The notes: generated by a model from the sequence alone, not told the origin. DNA of 64,000 nt from Escherichia phage vB_EcoM_Skers (MW748999.1), one strand, 5' to 3'. Counted from the first letter of the stretch, positions 12,731-64,000 are shown. Program-made: numbers and translations.

Positions 12731-12760
12731 AAAGCCAATTCGAGAGAGTTGGCTTTTTCC
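12731..12760 (+). terminator. rho-independent terminator after gene 8
   Basis: stem AAGCCAA/TTGGCTT followed by T-run. Confidence 0.6.
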
Positions 12761-12770
12761 ATTTTTGGTG

Positions 12771-12798
12771 TTGACAATCTTATTTGGTAAGGTATAAT
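12771..12798 (+). promoter_or_regulatory. sigma70-type promoter (TTGACA - 16/17 nt - TATAAT)
   Basis: perfect -35 and -10 hexamers read directly; AGGAGG-like SD (ACGGAGG) before ATG at 12828. Confidence 0.65.
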
Positions 12799-12827
12799 AC
12801 ACACATCTAAACAACGGAGGATAAATT

Positions 12828-13072
12828 ATGGCACGTCGTAAATTTACAGATAATTGTGAAGCAATTCAGGTATCCCCTTGCGGTTGGGATGTGATCGCGA
12901 ACGGTGAAAAGATCGGAGAGATCATCGATCATACTCATTCATCATTAGCCGATTACACCGATGAACTATGGGAGGGTATCAACTTCATGAATGACACTAA
13001 ACGATTCAAGACTATCGACGAAGCTATCTATTTTGTGTATAATCCAACTTTCGGTATGTGGGGAACTAGAAA

Positions 13073-26746: not shown

Positions 26747-27022
26747 TCAGGACATTGCCCGTTTGAATGCGTCCATTATAACAGTGTTATTTGGCTTGTC
26801 AACACGTTTTTGAACTTTATTTTTAAATTTTTTGTTGATGTGGTGTTTACGATAAACAACCTTTTCACGGTTGGCGTAAGCCTCGCGTGCATCTTTTACC
26901 ATCAACCATGCCTTAGCCGCATCTTGTCCGCTGATCCCGCCAATCTTCTTAGCAATATCAACAAAATTAAGACCGTGGTCTTCGCGTAGCATGTAAACCC
27001 TTAACGCTGTTTTCTTGTCCAT
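26747..27022 (-). CDS. hypothetical basic protein with helix-turn-helix-like segment (about 91 aa)
   Basis: ORF track 26747..27130; start placed at internal Met (MDKKTALRV) forming a TGATG stop/start overlap with the upstream ORF; LNFVDIAKKIGGISGQDAAKAW resembles an HTH. Confidence 0.4.
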   Translation of the reverse strand: MDKKTALRVYMLREDHGLNFVDIAKKIGGISGQDAAKAWLMVKDAREAYANREKVVYRKHHINKKFKNKVQKRVDKPNNTVIMDAFKRAMS

Positions 27023-56003: not shown

Positions 56004-57173
56004 TTACCAATCAATCTTATCAGCCGGAATAAGTTTCTTATAATTCCGTAGATAGTAAGTTTTCATTGAATCCATAATACGGTCATAATCAAGACCATCA
56101 AATGCAATCATCAGACACATGAAAATATATGCTTGTGCATCACCGTGTTTACGTGATTCGATAGTCGCATTTGATGCATATGTCTTTCTGTCTTCTCCCG
56201 CGTGTGCGTTATAAAATTCTGTTGCTGTCGTGAAGGCATTGCGAAGAATAGACCTGAATGCTTCCTCGAATAGCTCGATTCGTTCCATTGCTTCCGGTTC
56301 GCCTTCATATGCAGCACGCAAATCATCGGTTTCGCTTTCTACGACATAGTAGATCAGGTTATTAGGAAACATCGATGTGTTTTTAATGTTGTGCACACCA
56401 ATATACCATTCACTCTTCACTTTGAACATTTGACCGTCTTTAGTGCGGGCAACAATTCCTTCGATACCTTCTGCGATCCTAACTTCATCAAGAATATTGC
56501 TAAAACGCGCTGAATCAACCTGTAACGCATTTACCAGATGAGGACGTAGGATTGCGTCAGCAAATAGCATTTGATGCGGTACGTACTCTCCTGTGACGTT
56601 ATGGCGTACATTCAGAAGTGTTAGCGACGGTTCAGAATATTCTACAACAATTCGGTTGCTGGGTGCTGTATATTCAAAGTTGAAAGTATAATCAGACCCA
56701 ATATCAGCAATCTTAGCGCGTAGATCCGCATACTTCTCTGAATACAGAAGACCGTTTGCTCTCTCTGCCTGGCTTGAGTACAAGGCCGCTTTAGACTTCA
56801 ACTGAACATAGCCGTTATCAATGTATGTGCTTACTAGACTACCGTCCATTTTGTCCATGACCATTTCCACATCTTCCGGCTTAAAGCGAGCGCGATCATT
56901 CTCGCCCAAATTAAAAAACTTCTCCATAGGACGAGATGCGATGCGGACCGGACGACCTTTATCGTCAATTTCAAACATGATCCCGCGACACTCTAACGCA
57001 TCTGGTTTATTCCACATTTCCGGTTTGCTCAAGTACAGATAGCTAAAAATGCGCATACGGGTTTGCATCGCCGTAATTTCATCTTTGTAATAGAACGTAT
57101 CAGATCCGTCACATAGTGCCATCAGATTTTTGAACAATGCTAAAACTTTTTTGTTGTTTTCTTTTGTTGACAT
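56004..57173 (-). CDS. rnlA: RNA ligase 1
   Basis: 389 aa (T4 Rnl1 374 aa); long similarity to T4 Rnl1 as remembered (LFKNLMALC, PDALECRGIMFE, PVRIASRPMEKFFNL, KMDGSLVSTY, ILLNVR.N.TGEY, IEGIVA..KDG..FK.KS.WY, GEDRKTYA, FLKNYKK). Confidence 0.9.
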   Translation of the reverse strand: MSTKENNKKVLALFKNLMALCDGSDTFYYKDEITAMQTRMRIFSYLYLSKPEMWNKPDALECRGIMFEIDDKGRPVRIASRPMEKFFNLGENDRARFKPEDVEMVMDKMDGSLVSTYIDNGYVQLKSKAALYSSQAERANGLLYSEKYADLRAKIADIGSDYTFNFEYTAPSNRIVVEYSEPSLTLLNVRHNVTGEYVPHQMLFADAILRPHLVNALQVDSARFSNILDEVRIAEGIEGIVARTKDGQMFKVKSEWYIGVHNIKNTSMFPNNLIYYVVESETDDLRAAYEGEPEAMERIELFEEAFRSILRNAFTTATEFYNAHAGEDRKTYASNATIESRKHGDAQAYIFMCLMIAFDGLDYDRIMDSMKTYYLRNYKKLIPADKIDW

Positions 57174-57570
57174 AATTTGTGTTCCATTCTGGTTTAAATT
57201 TGGTGATCAAAACAGGTTCTTCGATATCGGCAGTGCTTATAATATCTTTACCCGTTGGATTCTCAATATATAACTCAAAGCACTGGCGGTAATAGAATGT
57301 TACTGTCTTCCCTTCCTCTAGCGCCTTATGAATATTCTTACTCTTGCGAGTATCCGCCGTTGGTGTCTGTCTGTTAATGCTAGTCCGGTAATAATTGATC
57401 CGCTTTCTGAGATTAACAGTCTGACCAATATATACCAGTTCATCATCAACCACAATAGCGTAAAGAACATTTAAACGGTTCTTCTGAGGCGGTAGAATCA
57501 CATCACCATCTTTACACTCTAAACATGAATATTTAACGAATCCATAGTTTTCTATTAGCTCATTAATCAT
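57109..57570 (-). CDS. denA: endonuclease II (GIY-YIG family)
   Basis: 153 aa; GIY-YIG core VLYAIVVDDELVYIGQTVNLRKRINYYRTS matches T4 EndoII as remembered; 3' end overlaps rnlA start by about 65 nt. Confidence 0.75.
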   Translation of the reverse strand: MINELIENYGFVKYSCLECKDGDVILPPQKNRLNVLYAIVVDDELVYIGQTVNLRKRINYYRTSINRQTPTADTRKSKNIHKALEEGKTVTFYYRQCFELYIENPTGKDIISTADIEEPVLITKFKPEWNTNYVNKRKQQKSFSIVQKSDGTM

Positions 57571-57589
57571 TATCCTTTCCTCACGTCAC

Positions 57590-57613
57590 AACAAAGGCGG
57601 GATTTCTCCCGCC
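57590..57613 (-). terminator. rho-independent terminator upstream of denA
   Basis: minus-strand GGCGGGAGAAATCCCGCC followed by TTTGTTGTG. Confidence 0.6.
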
Positions 57614-57620
57614 CACCTTA

Positions 57621-58019
57621 TTAACTTTCCAGAATATCGCGAGCTTCGTTACGCTCCTTGATGATTTTCAGGACAAATTCCAGTTTTTCTTTGTTCAGTG
57701 TTCCGTTTTCCATTGCTTCTTTGACGGTAAACACTCCGCCACCTTGCCCGTATACAGTGACAGTGATTTCACCTAACATCGTGGTATGAAAACCGCCAAT
57801 TTTCGGTGATTCGAAAGAAACAATTACCTCGCGGACATTATTACCGTCGTTGATTTCTGAGAGGGTAATGTCGTTTTTGTAGGCGGTTGCTTTAACCATA
57901 CGGATCAGCATAGTCTGATCTGGGGAGATGGTCATTTTGTCCATTGCATGTTGCAATGCAGCGTAACCGAAAACTTTAACGAAGTCCAGAACGTCTTTGC
58001 GAGTTTGAAATTTAATCAT
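57621..58019 (-). CDS. hypothetical protein (132 aa)
   Basis: ORF track; PeSL cassette immediately upstream. Confidence 0.5.
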   Translation of the reverse strand: MIKFQTRKDVLDFVKVFGYAALQHAMDKMTISPDQTMLIRMVKATAYKNDITLSEINDGNNVREVIVSFESPKIGGFHTTMLGEITVTVYGQGGGVFTVKEAMENGTLNKEKLEFVLKIIKERNEARDILES

Positions 58020-58089
58020 CTTGATACTCCTTAGTAAGTTAGTTTCGTTTCGATGGGGGTATATTACTACCCCCGTTTCATGCTGTCAA
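58020..58089 (-). promoter_or_regulatory. PeSL-like early promoter cassette
   Basis: minus-strand TTGACA - 17 nt - TAATAT with hairpin GGGGGTAGTAATATACCCCC over -10; leader ...AACTTACTAAGGAGTATCAAG-ATG. Confidence 0.6.
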
Positions 58090-58308
58090 CTACTTTTTAA
58101 TGACAAGTTCGAATTTTGCTACCTTGCGTCCTCGTTTATTGAAAGCAACCCACGGACGGTTTTCAATGTAGAACAATTCTTCACCAATAATGAATACTGG
58201 CTGATTGTAAAGGCGACCCATCAGGTCACGCTGGCGAATGGTAGTAGATTCGTATACTTCTCCTACTACAAAGTGTTTGCTGATAGAGTCGGTGCAAGTA
58301 AATTTCAT
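58090..58308 (-). CDS. hypothetical small protein (72 aa)
   Basis: ORF track; shares FVVGEVYE segment with the ORF at 60713..60880 (FVVGDVYEA); PeSL upstream. Confidence 0.5.
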   Translation of the reverse strand: MKFTCTDSISKHFVVGEVYESTTIRQRDLMGRLYNQPVFIIGEELFYIENRPWVAFNKRGRKVAKFELVIKK

Positions 58309-58377
58309 TTTGATTCTCCTTTGTTTCGTTTCGATGGGGGTATATTACTACCCCCGTTATTCAGTGTCAACTACTTT
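58309..58377 (-). promoter_or_regulatory. PeSL-like early promoter cassette
   Basis: minus-strand TTGACA - spacer - TAATAT with hairpin GGGGGTAGTAATATACCCCC; leader ...CGAAACAAAGGAGAATCAAA-ATG. Confidence 0.6.
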
Positions 58378-58596
58378 TTACTTGTTGTATTCATTCCACC
58401 ATTGAGTGAGCTTATCAATTATTTTTGTGTTTCTATCCAACTTATCCCACCGTTTTCGAGGGTTTATCAACCGGAATAGGTAAGGTGTACTTGTTAAGTG
58501 GACTCGGTCAATATAGTGATTGATGTACTGTTTTTCGATTCTAAGTTTCATCTTTTTACGATGAAAATATGCAATGACTTGTTCTTCTGTTTCCAT
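58378..58596 (-). CDS. hypothetical small basic protein (72 aa)
   Basis: ORF track; PeSL-like promoter upstream. Confidence 0.5.
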   Translation of the reverse strand: METEEQVIAYFHRKKMKLRIEKQYINHYIDRVHLTSTPYLFRLINPRKRWDKLDRNTKIIDKLTQWWNEYNK

Positions 58597-58659
58597 ATGT
58601 TCCTCCGTTTCGATGTGCGTATTATGCTATGGCAAGATCCGATTATCAACACCCAATAA
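58597..58659 (-). promoter_or_regulatory. sigma70 early promoter (PeSL-like, no strong hairpin)
   Basis: minus-strand TTGATA - 17 nt - CATAAT; leader CGCACATCGAAACGGAGGAACAT-ATG. Confidence 0.55.
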
Positions 58660-58684
58660 CAAAAAAGTCGCCACTATGGGCGAC
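58660..58684 (-). terminator. rho-independent terminator after the HAD-like gene
   Basis: minus-strand GTCGCC-CATAGT-GGCGAC followed by TTTTTTGTT. Confidence 0.7.
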
Positions 58685-58696
58685 TTTGAACAAACA

Positions 58697-59173
58697 TTAA
58701 TCATGACCGTGATTTGCAATATCCGCTCGCGTCTTATCTTTGTGATTTCCTACGTCAAAGACACGATAACCATTTTCACGCAAAACTTTAATCACTTCTG
58801 GGTTATCCTCAAAGACTCCGACAACTTCATCTTTATCAAAGGATTTAATTACCTCTAATTTGATGTGATAATCTTTACGGGAATCGGTACGGCCTCTCAT
58901 AAAGATTTTATCAAAACACACCCCGTTAGAAATTAACCAATCAATTGTTTCCATGTAAGCATGTGAACTTCGTCCGGTGAGGATGTAAATCAAATGCCCG
59001 TTGTCGGAAAGAGCATTAATAACACGAATTACATCGTAAATGGGGGAATCTCCCCCACATGCCTTGTTATATTCGATCCATGACTCGACTTTATCAAGAT
59101 TTTCGGTTGGCATCTTTGCTAGTCGATGTGTTGGATCTGTGATCGTAAAATCTAAATCGACAAAATATATCAT
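58697..59173 (-). CDS. HAD-superfamily phosphatase-like protein
   Basis: 158 aa; HAD motif I FVDLDFTIT (D-x-D-x-T), ILTGRS, and C-terminal FEDNPE; follows nrdB. Confidence 0.6.
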   Translation of the reverse strand: MIYFVDLDFTITDPTHRLAKMPTENLDKVESWIEYNKACGGDSPIYDVIRVINALSDNGHLIYILTGRSSHAYMETIDWLISNGVCFDKIFMRGRTDSRKDYHIKLEVIKSFDKDEVVGVFEDNPEVIKVLRENGYRVFDVGNHKDKTRADIANHGHD

Positions 59174-60357
59174 AGATATTTACCGAATCGGTTGTAGTCA
59201 TCGTCTGTTAAATCGGTATTAACCTGAGACACCAGATACATAATCTCTACTTCTTGCGCCGCGTTTTGAACTTCGTCAGAGTTTAACCACTTACGCATCC
59301 ACGGTAACGGATGACGACGAACACTAAACGGGCTTTTCAGTCCGACAGCACGCATACGGGAATCTGCCAGGTATTCTACATAGGTTTTCAGAATTTCCGG
59401 TGACAGGTTAGGAATTGCCCCCATTGCGAATAGGTGGTCTACCCATTCTTTTTCTTGCTCGACAACATCCAGAAAGATTTTCGTTGCTTCGCCTTCAAGT
59501 TCTTCCGCAATCTGTTTCCACTCATCACCATCACCCCCCGTTTGCCATTGACGAATAATGTATTGTGTGCCTTTTAAATGAAGTTGTTCATCACGCGCAA
59601 TAAATTTCATGATCTTCGCGTTACCTTCCAGTAAACCACGTTCGGCAAAGCTGAAAGTACATGCAAAGGACACATAAAAACGGATTGCTTCCAGTGCATT
59701 GACGCAGTGTGCACACAGATAAATCGAAGCCATCAGATCTCGTTTTGTATCTTCAAAAAATCTTCTTGCATCATCTAATTCTGTCTGATCGTCTCGTTCT
59801 TCCCAATAGTGGTGGAGAACTTCTTCTTCCCAATAGCGGAGATCTTCTTTTGCATTCTCATACTTACGAATCCAATAAAGAACATCATCATAATATTTCC
59901 CGATAGATTCCGCTCGCTTCATGATAGCAGGGTTATCGATGATCTGGTCGAACTCACTAGCCGGATCAATGAAACAGTTACGCATAATGTGTGTATAGCT
60001 TCGGCTATGAATCGTTTCGCTGAATGTCCATGTTTGCAACCATGTATCGAGAGTTGGATCAGATACAATTGGACCAAATGCTGCGGACGGTGCGCGACCT
60101 TGAATAGAATCAAGTAATGTCTGATACTTCAAGTTTTCGGTAAAGAAACGCTTTTCAACGTCACCCATATTAAGATATTGTATGCGGTCGGTTGCAAGTG
60201 AAATCTCTTCGGGACGCCAGAAAAATGACAATTGCTTTTCGATCAGTTCTTCAAATACTTGATGACGCTGAATATCATAGCGAGCGATACCCAACCCACT
60301 ACCCAGAAACATCGGTTCGTTCATAATATCAACATGTTCGCGGTTAAATACGCTCAT
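59170..60357 (-). CDS. nrdB: ribonucleotide reductase class Ia small subunit
   Basis: 395 aa (T4 NrdB 388 aa); di-iron/tyrosyl radical protein pattern; continuous ORF with no sign of an intron. Confidence 0.95.
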   Translation of the reverse strand: MSVFNREHVDIMNEPMFLGSGLGIARYDIQRHQVFEELIEKQLSFFWRPEEISLATDRIQYLNMGDVEKRFFTENLKYQTLLDSIQGRAPSAAFGPIVSDPTLDTWLQTWTFSETIHSRSYTHIMRNCFIDPASEFDQIIDNPAIMKRAESIGKYYDDVLYWIRKYENAKEDLRYWEEEVLHHYWEERDDQTELDDARRFFEDTKRDLMASIYLCAHCVNALEAIRFYVSFACTFSFAERGLLEGNAKIMKFIARDEQLHLKGTQYIIRQWQTGGDGDEWKQIAEELEGEATKIFLDVVEQEKEWVDHLFAMGAIPNLSPEILKTYVEYLADSRMRAVGLKSPFSVRRHPLPWMRKWLNSDEVQNAAQEVEIMYLVSQVNTDLTDDDYNRFGKYL

Positions 60358-60372
60358 TAATTCACCTCACTA

Positions 60373-60540
60373 TCACTTTTTAACACAAAAGAACTTAGTA
60401 TTTCTGTTTATTTCGTTATCCTGTTGCAATTCCTGCACGGCTTCAAAACAGCTTTGATGTGATGAAAACTCCACGCTGGTAACAGTTCCTTTATTATATG
60501 ATCCTACGCTAACGGAAAGCAATAACCATAATGTAGCCAT
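60373..60540 (-). CDS. hypothetical small protein with hydrophobic N-terminus, tandem paralog 2 (about 55 aa)
   Basis: hand-translated (MATLWLLLSVSVGSYNKGTVTSVEFSSHQSCFEAV...FFCVKK); TAATG-coupled to upstream paralog; GAGGTGA SD of nrdB follows; below track cutoff. Confidence 0.4.
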   Translation of the reverse strand: MATLWLLLSVSVGSYNKGTVTSVEFSSHQSCFEAVQELQQDNEINRNTKFFCVKK

Positions 60541-60713
60541 TAGTTCACCTTTTGTTTTTCAACGCAATATAGATTCATAAAGCGTTTATTGTCTTCACGG
60601 ATAATCTCGCGAGCTTTAACGCAATCCTGCTTTGTTGCAAACTCAATGCTTGACATATTTCCGTAATTATACATTGAATTGCTTATTGCAATCAATAACC
60701 ATACAGTAGCCAT
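60540..60713 (-). CDS. hypothetical small protein with hydrophobic N-terminus, tandem paralog 1 (about 57 aa)
   Basis: hand-translated (MATVWLLIAISNSMYNYGNMSSIEFATKQDCVKAR...LYCVEK); TAATG overlap with stop of ORF 60713..60943. Confidence 0.4.
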   Translation of the reverse strand: MATVWLLIAISNSMYNYGNMSSIEFATKQDCVKAREIIREDNKRFMNLYCVEKQKVN

Positions 60714-60880
60714 TATCCTACAACCTCAAAACATTTATCATCGGGAAGAATAGCCCATTCTACGCCGTATTCATCCTCAACGTAGTAGCAAGTCCCATCA
60801 TATCGAGCCTCATATACATCACCGACAACAAAGCTATCAGCTAGCTCAAAATCTACAGCAACACATTTTAATTTGGTCAT
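60713..60880 (-). CDS. hypothetical small acidic protein (about 55 aa)
   Basis: track ORF 60713..60943 with start at internal Met (MTKLKCVAVDF) right after PeSL leader. Confidence 0.5.
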   Translation of the reverse strand: MTKLKCVAVDFELADSFVVGDVYEARYDGTCYYVEDEYGVEWAILPDDKCFEVVG

Positions 60881-60948
60881 AATAAAATCCTCACTTGTTT
60901 TTGATGGTTGTATTATAGCGGGGATTTCTCCCCGCGTCAACACTTATT
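60881..60948 (-). promoter_or_regulatory. PeSL-like early promoter cassette
   Basis: minus-strand TTGACG - CGGGGAGAAATCCCCGC (palindromic 17-nt spacer) - TATAAT; leader ...AAGTGAGGATTTTATT-ATG; spacer hairpin is nearly the same sequence as the hairpin after gene 18. Confidence 0.65.
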
Positions 60949-63192
60949 TTACAGCTTGCAAGATGAGCACTCGCTAGCGTCTTCCGTACCATCTGCACCG
61001 TCGCGAACGTTCGCATAATACAGGGTTTTCAGACCGTAATGTTGAGCGAACAACATATCATCTAACACATCAGCAATATCGACTTTACCAGTCTTATAAG
61101 TGCTTGGATCATAGGATGTATTGGAACTAATCGCCTGATCTACAAACTTCTGCATGATCGCTGCCAGTGTCAGATAGGGCTTGTTACCTTTCTTGATCAG
61201 TGTCCAAAGCAGGTCAATAACATCAGCATTATTCTCTACGTTCGGAATAACCTGATTAAATTGCCCTTCTTTCGATCCTTTAACCGATACAATCCCGCGA
61301 GGCGGTTCAATACCGTTTGTGCTGTTAGATACCTGAGAAGACGACTCACAAGGCATCAGAGCCGAAAGCGTACTATTACGAATGCCATATTTTTTCAGGT
61401 CTTCGCGCAGTTCTTCCCAATCCATCTCATACACAGGATCAACCAGTTCATCTACTGTCTTTTTGTACCAGTCGATAGGCAGTTCACCGCGTCCATAACG
61501 TGTTTCGTGCATCAGTTCGCAAGCACCCTTCTCTTTAGCCAGTTGCACACTAGCCTTAATCAGAGCATATTGCAAGCGTTCAAACGTTTTATGCGTAAAC
61601 TCGTTAGCGTCTTCATATGTGAAGAAATTATCCGCTAGATATGACGCAAAGTTAGTAACACCAACACCCAGAGAGCGACGTTTTTTGGCTGTCAGAGCTT
61701 GTTCTACAGGATAATCCTGATAATCTAACAGGTTGTCAAGTGCACGCACCATAACCATAGCAATGCGTTCTACTTCTTCCATGTTTTCGATATCGAAATT
61801 ACCTAAAACATATGCTGCCAAAGTACATAGGCTGATCTCTGAATCATCACGCCCCATCGGTTTAGTAGGCAGAGCAATTTCACAACACAGGTTAGATTGT
61901 TTAATTGGTGCTACATTACGAATAAACGCCCCGTGATTGTTCATGTTGTCTGTGAATGTTGGGTAGATTCGACCAGTGTTAAAACGTTCAATTGCCACCG
62001 CTAAAAACAGGTCTTCGGCTTTAACACGAGTTTTACGAACACTCGGATCTTTTTCCAGTTTTTCGTAAAGCTGGCGGAAACCTTCCTCATCTCGGAAGTA
62101 CAGATCCCACAACAAGCCACCTGCAACATCTGGACTAAACAGAGTAATGTAATCCCGTTTAAGGAATCGCTCTACCATCAGGTTATTAATCTGTACGCCG
62201 TAGTCAAGATGGCGAATGCGGTTATCTTCCACGCCCTTATTGTTCTTTAACACAATCAGACTTTCAAACTCTAAATGCCACATTGGGTAATAGAGAGTCG
62301 CCGCCCCGCCACGAATACCGCCTTGTGAGCATGACTTAACGGCAGTCTGAAAATGTTTCCAGAATGGGATAACGCCAGTATGACGAACTTCACCATGCCC
62401 GATCTTAGATCCTTCCGCGCGAATCATGCCAGCGTTGATACCGATACCAGCACGCTTGCTAATATACTTGATGATTGCATTTGCTGTTTCGTTGATGCCC
62501 TGCAATGAGTCATCACTTTCAATCACCACACACGAACTAAATTGTCGTGTTGGAGTACGCACACCCGCCATAATCGGAGTAGGCAGAGAGATTTGCTTAT
62601 TCGCAACAGCATTATAAAAATCAATCACATGTTCAAGTCGATTTTCTGTCTCTTCTTGATGCAAACACATACCAATCAGCATATACGCAAATTGCGGTGT
62701 TTCGATGATTTTCTTAGTGCTGCGATCCTGAACAAGATATTTCTCTTTTAACTGCATCGCACCAGCATAGGTCATTTTAAAATCAAGTTTATGGTCGATG
62801 AATTTCTCCAGATATTCCACTTCTTCACGGGAATATTTTTGCAGAATTTCGCGATCATATTTTCCGGTTGCAATATTACGCTCAATATGGCTATAAAAAT
62901 CAATAGGTTGGAATTGACCGTATACTGATTTACGAAGCGCGAACATTGCAAGGTTACTTGCTACATATTGATAATCAGGCGTTTCTACAGTAATGTTATC
63001 TGCGGCGACCTTAATCAATACTTTCTGGATATCATTGGTAGACATACCTTCTGTCAGAAGTGGTTCAACCATATCAAACAATTCATATGGATCAACGTTA
63101 TGACCTTCGGCTGCCGCTTCCAGAATTTTCATTACTTTTTCTTTTTCAAACGGAACAGTCAGACCGGAAGACTTAACAACATTTTTAATCAT
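60949..63192 (-). CDS. nrdA: ribonucleotide reductase class Ia large subunit
   Basis: 747 aa (T4 NrdA 754 aa); N-terminal ATP-cone, active-site segment SNLCCEIALP; continuous ORF. Confidence 0.95.
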   Translation of the reverse strand: MIKNVVKSSGLTVPFEKEKVMKILEAAAEGHNVDPYELFDMVEPLLTEGMSTNDIQKVLIKVAADNITVETPDYQYVASNLAMFALRKSVYGQFQPIDFYSHIERNIATGKYDREILQKYSREEVEYLEKFIDHKLDFKMTYAGAMQLKEKYLVQDRSTKKIIETPQFAYMLIGMCLHQEETENRLEHVIDFYNAVANKQISLPTPIMAGVRTPTRQFSSCVVIESDDSLQGINETANAIIKYISKRAGIGINAGMIRAEGSKIGHGEVRHTGVIPFWKHFQTAVKSCSQGGIRGGAATLYYPMWHLEFESLIVLKNNKGVEDNRIRHLDYGVQINNLMVERFLKRDYITLFSPDVAGGLLWDLYFRDEEGFRQLYEKLEKDPSVRKTRVKAEDLFLAVAIERFNTGRIYPTFTDNMNNHGAFIRNVAPIKQSNLCCEIALPTKPMGRDDSEISLCTLAAYVLGNFDIENMEEVERIAMVMVRALDNLLDYQDYPVEQALTAKKRRSLGVGVTNFASYLADNFFTYEDANEFTHKTFERLQYALIKASVQLAKEKGACELMHETRYGRGELPIDWYKKTVDELVDPVYEMDWEELREDLKKYGIRNSTLSALMPCESSSQVSNSTNGIEPPRGIVSVKGSKEGQFNQVIPNVENNADVIDLLWTLIKKGNKPYLTLAAIMQKFVDQAISSNTSYDPSTYKTGKVDIADVLDDMLFAQHYGLKTLYYANVRDGADGTEDASECSSCKL

Positions 63193-63261: not shown

Positions 63262-64000
63262 TTATACTGCCATTTGAGCGGTGATTGCTGGATGGCTTTG
63301 ATAGTTGTGAATTTTAAAGTCTTTCGGAGTCTTTGTCAATACCTCATCTAAAGACTTAAATTCCGGCAACTCAATTGTTGGTTTATCAAACGGAACACGG
63401 CTTAACTGTTCCATAACTTGATCAAAATGGTTTTTGTAAATGTGGCAATCCCCACACTGATAAACCAGTTCGCCAACTTCTAACCCGCAAATCTTCGCGA
63501 TGATATGCGTTAACAGTGCATAGCTCGCTACGTTGAACGGATTCCCTAAAAAGAGATCATTCGAACGCATGAAAAATAAACAACTCAATTTGTTGTCGTT
63601 GGAAACATAAAACTGTACCATCGGATGACATACACCTAACACAGCATTATGCGTTTCCTGTACGTTCCATGAATCAATGATAATACGACGACTATACGGA
63701 TCATTCTTGATCATGTCAATAACTTTTTGTAACTGGTCTTCCCAAATCTTCGGGCGATAGACATATTCTTCATCGTCTTTAGTGCTTGATGTGTCTACGT
63801 CCATACTAGCAAAGATCGTGGTATCTGGTGCTAAAATATCCCCACCCAGATAATCACTATCAAGCAGATAACCGAAATAACCATCATCTACCCATTCCTG
63901 GAATCCCCACAAGCAATATGCATCATTAACAAAATTAGATTGAGTCTTCCAGTGATCGGCTACTAAGAATTGATTATATTCAGAATCAAACTCTTCATAA
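63262..64000 (-). CDS. td: thymidylate synthase (3' portion; gene continues beyond the window edge)
   Basis: TS-family motifs DPYSRRIIIDSWN, LGVCHPMVQFYV (catalytic Cys), MRSNDLFLGNPFNVASYALL, C-terminus KDFKIHNYQSHPAITAQMAV like T4 Td (KDFVLNNYVSHPPIKGKMAV); the TTG start in the track is an artefact, the frame stays open to position 64000; carries an insertion of about 40 aa relative to T4/E. coli TS. Confidence 0.85.
   Translation of the reverse strand, partial: YEEFDSEYNQFLVADHWKTQSNFVNDAYCLWGFQEWVDDGYFGYLLDSDYLGGDILAPDTTIFASMDVDTSSTKDDEEYVYRPKIWEDQLQKVIDMIKNDPYSRRIIIDSWNVQETHNAVLGVCHPMVQFYVSNDNKLSCLFFMRSNDLFLGNPFNVASYALLTHIIAKICGLEVGELVYQCGDCHIYKNHFDQVMEQLSRVPFDKPTIELPEFKSLDEVLTKTPKDFKIHNYQSHPAITAQMAV

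What the first reader, a model, noticed from the sequence alone, without database searches (positions are those of the whole stretch)
58020..60948. Second cluster of PeSL-like cassettes around the nrdB/nrdA early genes
Cassettes of the same design occur at 58020..58089, 58309..58377, 58597..58659 and 60881..60948, each in front of a small ORF. The first two share the hairpin GGGGGTAGTAATATACCCCC, and the last has a perfect TATAAT with palindromic spacer CGGGGAGAAATCCCCGC. Their presence in a separate genome region argues that the cassette is a dispersed, reusable module rather than a local tandem duplication.
Basis: seen in the sequence. Interest (0 to 1): 0.55.

Follow-up and report, generated by a model that had tools for sequence, protein, structure and literature searches.

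The report
Known PeSL promoter–hairpin cassettes near nrdAB
The four short intergenic repeats are real, but they are the already published "PeSL" early-promoter/stem-loop cassettes of RB49-like T4-type coliphages, and related phages show genes being gained, lost or swapped at exactly these cassettes, as the published model predicts.

Summary
The window is a Krischvirus (RB49-like T4-type coliphage; 96-97% identical to pEJ01, Sf20 and RB49). All four cassettes exist at the stated coordinates. They lie on the minus strand and each fills one intergenic gap in front of a small ORF of unknown function.

A sequence-only profile trained on the ten cassettes of the main cluster recovers them at E = 1e-13, 8e-11, 2e-6 and 2e-4. 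The likeness therefore extends beyond the promoter hexamers, into the A-rich upstream tract, the G-run/C-run hairpin, the leader and the Shine-Dalgarno site.

Their RB49 orthologues were listed as predicted early promoters in 2006. The element class (PeSL, promoter-early stem-loop) was described and partly tested in RB49/phi1 in 2010.

Related phages show ORF226 absent with two different junctions, ORF227 absent in one phage, ORF228 replaced by two other ORFs, and patchwise exchange between neighbouring cassettes. Every breakpoint lies inside a cassette.

Verdict: observation confirmed, interpretation supported, already known, low interest.

The parts
58020..58089 (-). Cassette c1, in front of the 132-aa ORF homologous to RB49ORF225c. 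It has -35 TTGACA at 58089-58084 and -10 TAATAT at 58066-58061. The inferred transcription start is near 58054. The leader is ATCGAAACGAAAC, followed by SD AAGGAG. It is a chimera: the 5' ~60 nt equal RB49 PeSL227/226 and the SD end equals PeSL226/225.
   Evidence: 38.5 bits, E 8e-11
58055..58074 (-). c1 stem-loop GGGGGTA-gtaata-TACCCCC. The stem has 7 bp and a computed energy of -12.5 kcal/mol. Its loop and 3' arm cover the -10 hexamer and the discriminator. No U-tract follows it.
58309..58377 (-). Cassette c2, in front of the 72-aa ORF homologous to RB49ORF227c. It has -35 TTGACA at 58370-58365 and -10 TAATAT at 58347-58342. It is orthologous to the RB49 predicted early promoter Pe:132020.
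   Evidence: 47.6 bits, E 1e-13
58336..58355 (-). c2 stem-loop, identical in sequence to the c1 stem-loop.
58597..58659 (-). Cassette c3, in front of the 72-aa ORF homologous to RB49ORF228c. It has -35 TTGATA at 58649-58644, -10 CATAAT at 58626-58621 and the leader ATCGAAACGGAGGA. No hairpin lies inside this span. It is orthologous to RB49 Pe:132299.
   Evidence: 18.1 bits, E 2e-4
58664..58687 (-). Canonical intrinsic terminator, AAAGTCGCC-catagt-GGCGACTTT followed by a T-run. It ends the nrdA-nrdB-phosphatase unit and serves as the stem-loop component of c3 (the subclass with the stem-loop upstream of the -35).
   Evidence: GenBank records G2248 and GEC-3S annotate a terminator at the orthologous site.
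60881..60948 (-). Cassette c4, between the nrdA stop codon and the 55-aa ORF homologous to RB49ORF233c. It has -35 TTGACG at 60940-60935 and -10 TATAAT at 60917-60912, followed by SD GAGGA. It is orthologous to RB49 Pe:134563 and its sequence is identical in RB49 and G2248.
   Evidence: 24.5 bits, E 2e-6
60918..60935 (-). c4 stem-loop GCGGGGA-gaaa-TCCCCGC, which fills the promoter spacer. The stem has 7 bp and a computed energy of -13.7 kcal/mol. The cassette folds with z = -4.75.
57595..57614 (-). Intrinsic terminator GGGCGGGA-gaaa-TCCCGCCT followed by TTTGTTG. It closes the ORF225 unit before denA. It shares the core GGGAGAAATCCC with the c4 hairpin.
57621..58019 (-). ORF driven by c1 (132 aa, phrog_10173, unknown function).
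58090..58308 (-). ORF driven by c2 (72 aa, phrog_14957, unknown function). It is absent in phage AV108.
58378..58596 (-). ORF driven by c3 (72 aa, phrog_18672, unknown function). It is replaced by two other ORFs in phages E26 and ELT4.
60373..60880 (-). Three small ORFs of 55, 57 and 55 aa driven by c4, lying ahead of nrdB. All are of unknown function. The two distal ones are paralogues.

Best explanation
These are four members of the published PeSL family (promoter-early stem-loop) of RB49-type T4-like coliphages. They sit in a small variable patch inside the conserved td-nrdA-nrdB-denA block.

Each cassette is a self-contained expression unit read on the minus strand. It has five parts:
- an A-rich, UP-like tract that holds the stop codon of the upstream gene;
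- a near-consensus sigma-70 promoter with a 17-nt spacer;
- a G-run/C-run stem-loop placed in the spacer (c4), over the -10 (c1, c2) or just upstream of the -35 (c3);
- a conserved leader that begins at the inferred start site (CAT(A)C(C/G)AAAC);
- a Shine-Dalgarno site and the start codon of a small ORF of unknown function.

Inferred function: host RNA polymerase starts early transcripts at each cassette. A transcript that starts at a cassette's own promoter does not contain that cassette's hairpin. Only read-through RNA from upstream contains it, and the hairpin attenuates or ends that RNA. Each small ORF is thereby expressed largely from its own promoter.

Shown here by comparison of genomes: the roughly 70-nt cassettes are near-identical repeats, so the phage's homologous recombination system exchanges between them. 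This deletes, inserts or swaps the ORFs they flank and leaves chimeric cassettes behind. c1 of this window is such a chimera.
For: Identity of the phage: megablast matches Krischvirus genomes at 96-97%.

Family membership:
- A profile from the main cluster hits all four cassettes.
- The main cluster contains the orthologues of the experimentally tested RB49 PeSL206/205 (97% identical) and PeSL211/210 (96%).
- Similarity outside the hexamers is about 4 standard deviations above that of generic hexamer matches.
- 12 of 14 PeSL-type promoters carry a hairpin of -8 kcal/mol or stronger, against 4 of 83 other hexamer matches (Fisher p = 2e-10). The stems vary by compensating changes at the fourth pair, which is G-C, A-T or T-A.

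Prior knowledge:
- The RB49 orthologues are listed as predicted early promoters Pe:131514, 131739, 132020, 132299 and 134563 in Nolan 2006, Additional file 3.
- The GEC-3S GenBank record annotates promoters at all orthologous sites.
- The PeSL definition, the promoter and terminator assays and the mini-circle model are in PMC2839356. The G(n)-loop-C(n) stem and the TTGACA-N17-TATAAT signature are in PMC4122927.

Recombination:
- ORF226 plus one cassette is present in 46 of 58 matching records and absent in 12, and it is also absent from the window.
- The junction in the window, ECD7, JSE and SSG23 lies in the leader. The junction in phiS lies in the -35 region, so it is a second junction type.
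- AV108 lacks ORF227, with the junction at the SD.
- E26 and ELT4 carry two different ORFs in place of ORF228, with both junctions inside cassettes.
- The 9-nt spacer patches GCATGAAAC and CTGAATAAC, and the hairpin 3' arms TACCCCC and TACTCCC, reassort between neighbouring cassettes in different phages.

ORFs: all are of unknown function.
Against: - I found no transcription-start or 3'-end data for this phage or for these particular cassettes. Promoter and attenuator activity is therefore extrapolated from other family members.
- The c1, c2 and c4 hairpins lack a following U-tract, and the terminator scan does not call them. Efficient termination at them is uncertain. The only canonical terminators are at 58664-58687 and 57595-57614.
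- c3 and c4 are weaker profile matches. They share the promoter core and the start of the leader but not the full cassette.
- The direction of each event (deletion or insertion) was not resolved.
- The window's c1 junction contains 8 nt (CTAACTTA) that are not present in either RB49 parental cassette. It is therefore not a simple recombinant of the RB49 alleles.
Confidence: 0.88

Rival explanations
1. These are ordinary strong early promoters. They resemble each other only because selection holds UP element, hexamers, start-site context and ribosome-binding site near their optima. They play no special part in gene shuffling.
For: Most conserved blocks coincide with functional promoter or translation signals. 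Hexamer matches alone are not enriched. The leader/SD part also occurs in unrelated Drexlerviridae coliphages, which could reflect convergence.
Against: c1 and c2 are identical over 35 + 15 nt, including positions with no known constraint. Spacer patches and hairpin arms reassort among phages, and all five observed indel or replacement junctions lie inside cassettes. Functional constraint and recombination are not mutually exclusive.
Confidence: 0.07
2. The three adjacent cassettes c1-c3 are remnants of a local tandem duplication of a gene-plus-promoter unit.
For: The start-to-start spacing is regular, at 281 and 279 nt. Two of the ORFs have the same length, 72 aa.
Against: The ORFs between the cassettes show no similarity to one another. 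The same cassette design occurs 8-15 kb away and on the other strand at 12768-12822.
Confidence: 0.02
3. The G-run/C-run hairpins are targets of a dedicated DNA-binding or structure-specific recombination protein. Exchange would then be site-specific rather than by general homologous recombination. Arbiol et al. raised this possibility.
For: The GGGG...CCCC stems are conserved across otherwise different cassettes. The RB49 PeSL228/227 hairpin looks like a chimera with a crossover in or near the loop. The idea is stated in PMC2839356.
Against: The crossover points inferred here are spread over the -35 (phiS), the spacer and loop, the leader (window type, ELT4) and the SD (AV108). They are not focused at the hairpin. 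c3 and two main-cluster members have no such hairpin and still sit at junctions. No recombinase gene is evident nearby.
Confidence: 0.05

Closest known systems
PeSLs (promoter-early stem-loops) of coliphages RB49 and phi1 (Arbiol et al. 2010, PMC2839356)
   Same: The host phage group is the same. The architecture is the same: AT-rich tract, TTGACA-N17-TATAAT-like promoter, G(n)-loop-C(n) stem-loop in variable register, and SD plus the start of an ORFan. The association with ORF presence/absence differences and with chimeric junctions is the same. The cassettes are positional orthologues of the RB49 intergenic regions 226/225, 228/227, 229/228 and nrdA/233.
   Different: Nothing essential differs. 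This phage lacks ORF226, so c1 is a 227/225 chimera. The papers I could read do not name the nrdA-nrdB patch explicitly, and the genome map figure was not available to me.
Predicted RB49 early promoters (Nolan et al. 2006, PMC1524935, Additional file 3)
   Same: The coordinates Pe:131514, 132020, 132299 and 134563 correspond one-to-one to c1-c4. The consensus is sigma-70-like with an A-rich -40 region and C-rich -3 to -1.
   Different: That work treated them as promoters only. It did not consider the stem-loop or any role in recombination.
PeSLs/PmSLs of PST/T4 and nt-1/KVP40 (Comeau et al. 2014, PMC4122927)
   Same: These are composite promoter-terminator repeats that flank variable ORFs, with exchanges at the repeats.
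   Different: The promoter consensus differs (TTTACW or TTGYVH -35) and so do the stem sequences (AG(n)A/TC(n)T; A3-4G3/C3T3-4). No sequence similarity to the cassettes here was tested.
Integron gene cassettes (comparison from general knowledge)
   Same: In both, small single-gene modules are bounded by repeated structured sites and can be excised as circles and reinserted.
   Different: Integron cassettes are usually promoterless and are moved by a dedicated tyrosine recombinase at attC/attI. Here each module carries its own promoter, and the exchange looks like general homologous recombination.

Membership tests
RB49/phi1-type PeSL | Near-consensus sigma-70 promoter, TTGACA-N17-TATAAT | tested here: met
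   c1 and c2 have TTGACA/TAATAT, c3 has TTGATA/CATAAT and c4 has TTGACG/TATAAT. All have a 17-nt spacer and match 10-11 of 12 hexamer positions.
RB49/phi1-type PeSL | AT-rich tract upstream of the -35 that contains the stop codon of the upstream gene | tested here: met
   c1 and c2 have TAAAAAGTAG, c3 has TTTTTTGTTATTGGGTG and c4 has TAAAATAAGTG. The 14-mer that includes this tract is enriched, with 16 occurrences against 1.9 expected. The tract is weaker in c3 and c4.
RB49/phi1-type PeSL | Stable stem-loop, typically G(n)-loop-C(n), located in the spacer, overlapping a hexamer, upstream of the -35 or downstream of the -10 | tested here: met
   The c1/c2 hairpin is -12.5 kcal/mol and overlaps the -10. 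The c4 hairpin is -13.7 kcal/mol and lies in the spacer. c3 is met only through the upstream terminator hairpin GTCGCC/GGCGAC, which is not a G-run/C-run stem.
RB49/phi1-type PeSL | Shine-Dalgarno site and start codon of a downstream gene, usually an ORFan, at the 3' end | tested here: met
   GGAG or GAGG lies 6-9 nt before the ATG in all four cassettes. The downstream ORFs match only PHROG families of unknown function and have no Pfam match above threshold.
RB49/phi1-type PeSL | Sequence relatedness to characterised PeSLs | tested here: met
   The profile was built from cassettes that include the orthologues of tested PeSL206/205 and PeSL211/210. It hits c2, c1, c4 and c3 at E = 1e-13, 8e-11, 2e-6 and 2e-4.
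RB49/phi1-type PeSL | Association with insertions, deletions or replacements between close relatives, with junctions in the cassette | tested here: met
   ORF226 is present or absent with two junction types. ORF227 is absent in AV108. ORF228 is replaced in E26 and ELT4.
RB49/phi1-type PeSL | Early promoter activity in vivo | not testable with these tools
   Only predictions exist for these sites. Activity was shown for PeSL206/205 in PMC2839356.
RB49/phi1-type PeSL | Terminator or attenuator activity of the stem-loop | not testable with these tools
   This was shown only for the PeSL211/210 stem-loop. That stem-loop lies in the spacer, as the c4 stem-loop does.
RB49/phi1-type PeSL | Formation of mini-circles by recombination between flanking PeSLs | not testable with these tools
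   This needs inverse PCR on infected cells or virion DNA.
Canonical Rho-independent terminator | GC-rich hairpin immediately followed by a U-tract | tested here: not met
   The c1, c2 and c4 hairpins are followed by AUCGAAAC or UAUAAUAC and are not called by the scan. Only 58664-58687 and 57595-57614 qualify.

The most novel reading that the evidence does not exclude
PeSL-PeSL exchange in this 1-kb patch may be recurrent and still ongoing in natural Krischvirus populations. It would then be a tractable natural system for measuring short-homology recombination. The evidence for recurrence is at least two junction types for ORF226 absence, one ORF227 absence, one ORF228 replacement and patchwise conversion. 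In addition, the leader/SD half of the cassette occurs at 81-90% identity in unrelated Drexlerviridae coliphages (SU57, AugustePiccard, vB_Ec-G8). This leaves open that parts of the cassette move between phage families that co-infect E. coli.
Probability: 0.12. Interest if true: 0.45.

Novelty: already known. Interest (0 to 1): 0.15.

Why it matters
The finding adds little that is new. It confirms, in one more RB49-like phage, that PeSL cassettes also populate the small variable patch inside the conserved nucleotide-metabolism block.

The now much larger set of Krischvirus genomes shows several exchanges at these cassettes. The modest added value is that the inferred crossover points are scattered over the whole cassette: the -35, the spacer and loop, the leader and the SD. 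This favours ordinary short-homology recombination over a hairpin-specific recombinase, a question the original authors left open.

For annotation, the result means the small ORFs in this patch should be treated as separately promoted early units of unknown function.

Tried and rejected
- Generic sigma-70 hexamer scan of 55-64 kb: 29 sites against 25.3 expected. It is not informative on its own.
- The 11-mer CCATCGAAACG with 2 mismatches: 20 matches against 16.9 expected. This is too permissive to be useful.
- Rfam search at E <= 1 on 57000-61500: no family matched.
- Literature search for Krischvirus or RB49 transcriptome or start-site data: nothing usable.
- Desplats 2002, which mapped 5' ends of RB49 early transcripts, is not held. 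The supplement of Arbiol 2010 is not held. I therefore could not check whether these exact cassettes are among the 51-52 listed PeSLs.
- A formal pair-count on one alignment of the hairpins that overlap the -10 was not run. MAFFT aligned them without gaps, and the two sub-types have 5' arms offset by 2 nt. Covariation is instead reported from the per-cassette hairpin table.
- Tandem duplication of gene-plus-cassette units is rejected, because the ORFs are unrelated.
- Hairpin-targeted site-specific recombination is considered unlikely, because the junctions are dispersed.
- The apparent 'absence' of ORF225 in kaaroe and LF73P4 was a BLAST piece-joining artefact. kaaroe has the RB49 arrangement.
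Full report
**What the window is.** The 3.7-kb region around the finding matches 89 phage records. The best matches are Krischvirus genomes at 96-97% identity: pEJ01, Sf20, RB49 and phi1. All genes here are on the minus strand. In order they are nrdA (60949-63192), three small ORFs, nrdB (59170-60357), a PNK-phosphatase-like gene (58697-59173), three small ORFs, and then denA (57109-57570).

**Checking the observation.** Read on the minus strand, the four stated spans are exactly four intergenic gaps.
- c1 (58089..58020) and c2 (58377..58309) read AAAAAGTAG-TTGACA-N17-TAATAT. The hairpin GGGGGTA-gtaata-TACCCCC overlaps the -10. It is followed by CATCGAAACGAAAC, an AGGAG Shine-Dalgarno site and the ATG.
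- c3 (58659..58597) reads TTGATA-N17-CATAAT-ACGCACATCGAAACGGAGGA-ATG.
- c4 (60948..60881) reads TTGACG-N17-TATAAT. The palindrome GCGGGGA-gaaa-TCCCCGC fills the spacer.

The downstream ORFs are 132, 72, 72 and 55 aa long.

The repeat finder returns a 61-nt direct repeat shared by c1 and c2 at 89% identity, and a 24-nt family that adds c3. The hairpin-bearing cassettes fold better than shuffled sequence, with z = -2.8 (c1), -2.2 (c2) and -4.75 (c4).

One correction is needed. A canonical terminator at 58664-58687 lies 14 nt upstream of its -35.

**Is the likeness more than generic hexamers?** Hexamer matches alone are not enriched: 29 found against 25.3 expected. The extended design is enriched.
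- The 14-mer AAAAGTWGTTGACA occurs 16 times against 1.9 expected. Thirteen of the 16 occurrences lie at cassette-type promoters on the minus strand.
- Over 28 flank positions outside the hexamers and the spacer, the four cassettes share 14.9-18.7 positions with the ten main-cluster cassettes. The 83 other hexamer matches share 8.0 +/- 2.3.
- A sequence-only profile was built from the ten main-cluster cassettes only and run unfiltered on both strands. It ranks c2 (47.6 bits, E 1e-13), c1 (38.5 bits, 8e-11), c4 (24.5 bits, 2e-6) and c3 (18.1 bits, 2e-4) just after its own training set. The only other hit in that range is a plus-strand cassette at 12768-12822.
- Hairpins of -8 kcal/mol or stronger accompany 12 of 14 cassette-type promoters but only 4 of 83 other hexamer matches (Fisher p = 2e-10). 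The stems keep GGG/CCC ends, while the fourth pair is G-C, A-T or T-A.

**What it is.** These are PeSLs, the promoter-early stem-loop cassettes described in RB49 and phi1 (PMC2839356).
- About 51-52 occur per genome.
- They combine an AT-rich tract, a sigma-70 consensus promoter, a G-run/C-run stem-loop in one of five positions, and the SD plus start codon of an ORFan.
- Promoter activity was shown for PeSL206/205. Terminator activity was shown for the PeSL211/210 stem-loop.
- A mini-circle shuffling model was proposed for them.

The 2014 follow-up gives the RB49-type signature as G(n)-loop-C(n) and TTGACA-N17-TATAAT.

The window's main cluster contains the orthologues of the tested PeSL206/205 (97% identical) and PeSL211/210 (96%). 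The profile test therefore ties c1-c4 to characterised members.

The RB49 orthologues of c1-c4 are already listed as predicted early promoters Pe:131514, 132020, 132299 and 134563 in Nolan 2006, Additional file 3. GEC-3S annotates promoters at all of these sites. c3 fits the published subclass with the stem-loop upstream of the -35. The plus-strand cassette at 12768 has the same layout.

**Comparative evidence for the module idea.**
- RB49 and 45 other records carry an extra 150-nt ORF (ORF226) plus one more cassette between ORF227 and ORF225. The window and about a dozen phages lack it.
- In the window, ECD7, JSE and SSG23, cassette c1 equals RB49 PeSL227/226 through ...CGAAACGAAA and equals PeSL226/225 from CTAAGGAG onward. 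The junction is therefore in the leader.
- phiS also lacks ORF226, but its junction lies in TTGACAGCAT. This is a second junction type.
- AV108 lacks ORF227, with the junction at the Shine-Dalgarno site.
- E26 and ELT4 carry two unrelated ORFs in place of ORF228, with both junctions inside cassettes.
- The spacer patches GCATGAAAC and CTGAATAAC, and the hairpin 3' arms TACCCCC and TACTCCC, reassort between neighbouring cassettes in different phages. Some of the resulting stems contain G-T pairs.
- The ORFs between the cassettes are mutually unrelated, which excludes tandem duplication of whole units.

The junctions are scattered across the whole cassette. This fits general short-homology recombination better than a hairpin-specific enzyme. 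That is an inference from about six events.

**Mechanism, shown versus inferred.**
- Shown here: the repeated architecture, its statistical support, orthology to published elements, and recombination junctions inside the cassettes.
- Inferred from the family: early transcription starts about 7 nt after the -10, at the conserved C-A.
- Also inferred: a cassette's own transcripts do not contain its hairpin, so the hairpin acts only on read-through RNA.
- Uncertain: how well the c1, c2 and c4 hairpins terminate. They lack U-tracts and are not called by the terminator scan.
- The canonical terminators at 58664-58687 and 57595-57614 bound the larger transcription units.

**Novelty and score.** The element class, its presence in this phage group and the shuffling interpretation are all published. 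This is a correct recognition of a known feature. Interest is low (0.15). The small increments are the two junction types for ORF226 absence and the dispersed crossover points.

Noticed in passing
window 59797-59839 (within nrdB, minus strand): There is a 27-nt tandem duplication (TTCTTCCCAATAGYGG repeated 27 nt apart). It makes NrdB 395 aa here, against 386 aa in RB49. The span lengths suggest that pEJ01 shares it and that Whisky and ECD7 do not.
   Followed up: partly
window 60373-60540 and 60540-60713 (minus strand): Two adjacent small ORFs between c4 and nrdB are paralogues. They are 40% identical over 55 aa and both match phrog_5579. This is a tandem gene duplication with no cassette between the copies.
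   Followed up: partly
window 12733-12830 (plus strand): A further cassette lies on the opposite strand. It consists of the terminator AGCCAA..TTGGCTTTTT, then TTGACA-N16-TATAAT-ACACACATC, then GGAGGA and an ATG for an 85-aa ORF. The profile E-value is 4e-5. Its layout is the same as that of c3.
   Followed up: partly
window 63693-63733 and 26767-26815 (minus strand): These are weak profile hits (E 0.026 and 0.058) with TTGACA-N17-TATAGT and TTGACA-N16-TATAAT. The first lies inside the ORF upstream of nrdA and may be an internal promoter for nrdA.
   Followed up: no
window 58017-58071 versus L013 1501-1569 (phage SU57, Drexlerviridae): The -10, leader and SD part of c1 (CCATCGAAACGAAAC...ACTAAGGA) is 81-90% identical over 40-55 nt to regions upstream of genes in unrelated ~46-50-kb coliphages (SU57, AugustePiccard, vB_Ec-G8). 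This could be convergence or transfer of a regulatory leader.
   Followed up: partly
L011 2958-3605 (phage phiS): A free-standing homing endonuclease gene is inserted directly upstream of nrdB in phiS. In the window the corresponding gap is only 15 nt (60358-60372).
   Followed up: no
L005 1961-2030 (phage AV108): The cassette in front of ORF225 is rearranged in AV108. The -35 is destroyed and part of the hairpin is duplicated (GTAGTAAGATACTTAGTAAGATACTCCC). It looks like a slipped or decayed PeSL.
   Followed up: no
window 57595-57614 and 60918-60935: The terminator hairpin after ORF225 (GGGCGGGAGAAATCCCGCC) and the c4 spacer hairpin (GCGGGGAGAAATCCCCGC) share the core GGGAGAAATCCC, including the GAAA loop.
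   Followed up: no
window 58090-58308 and 60713-60880 (minus strand): The small ORFs behind c2 and c4 share a short motif, FVVG(E/D)VYE, with 7 of 13 residues identical (pairwise E 5e-4). They may be distant paralogues.
   Followed up: partly
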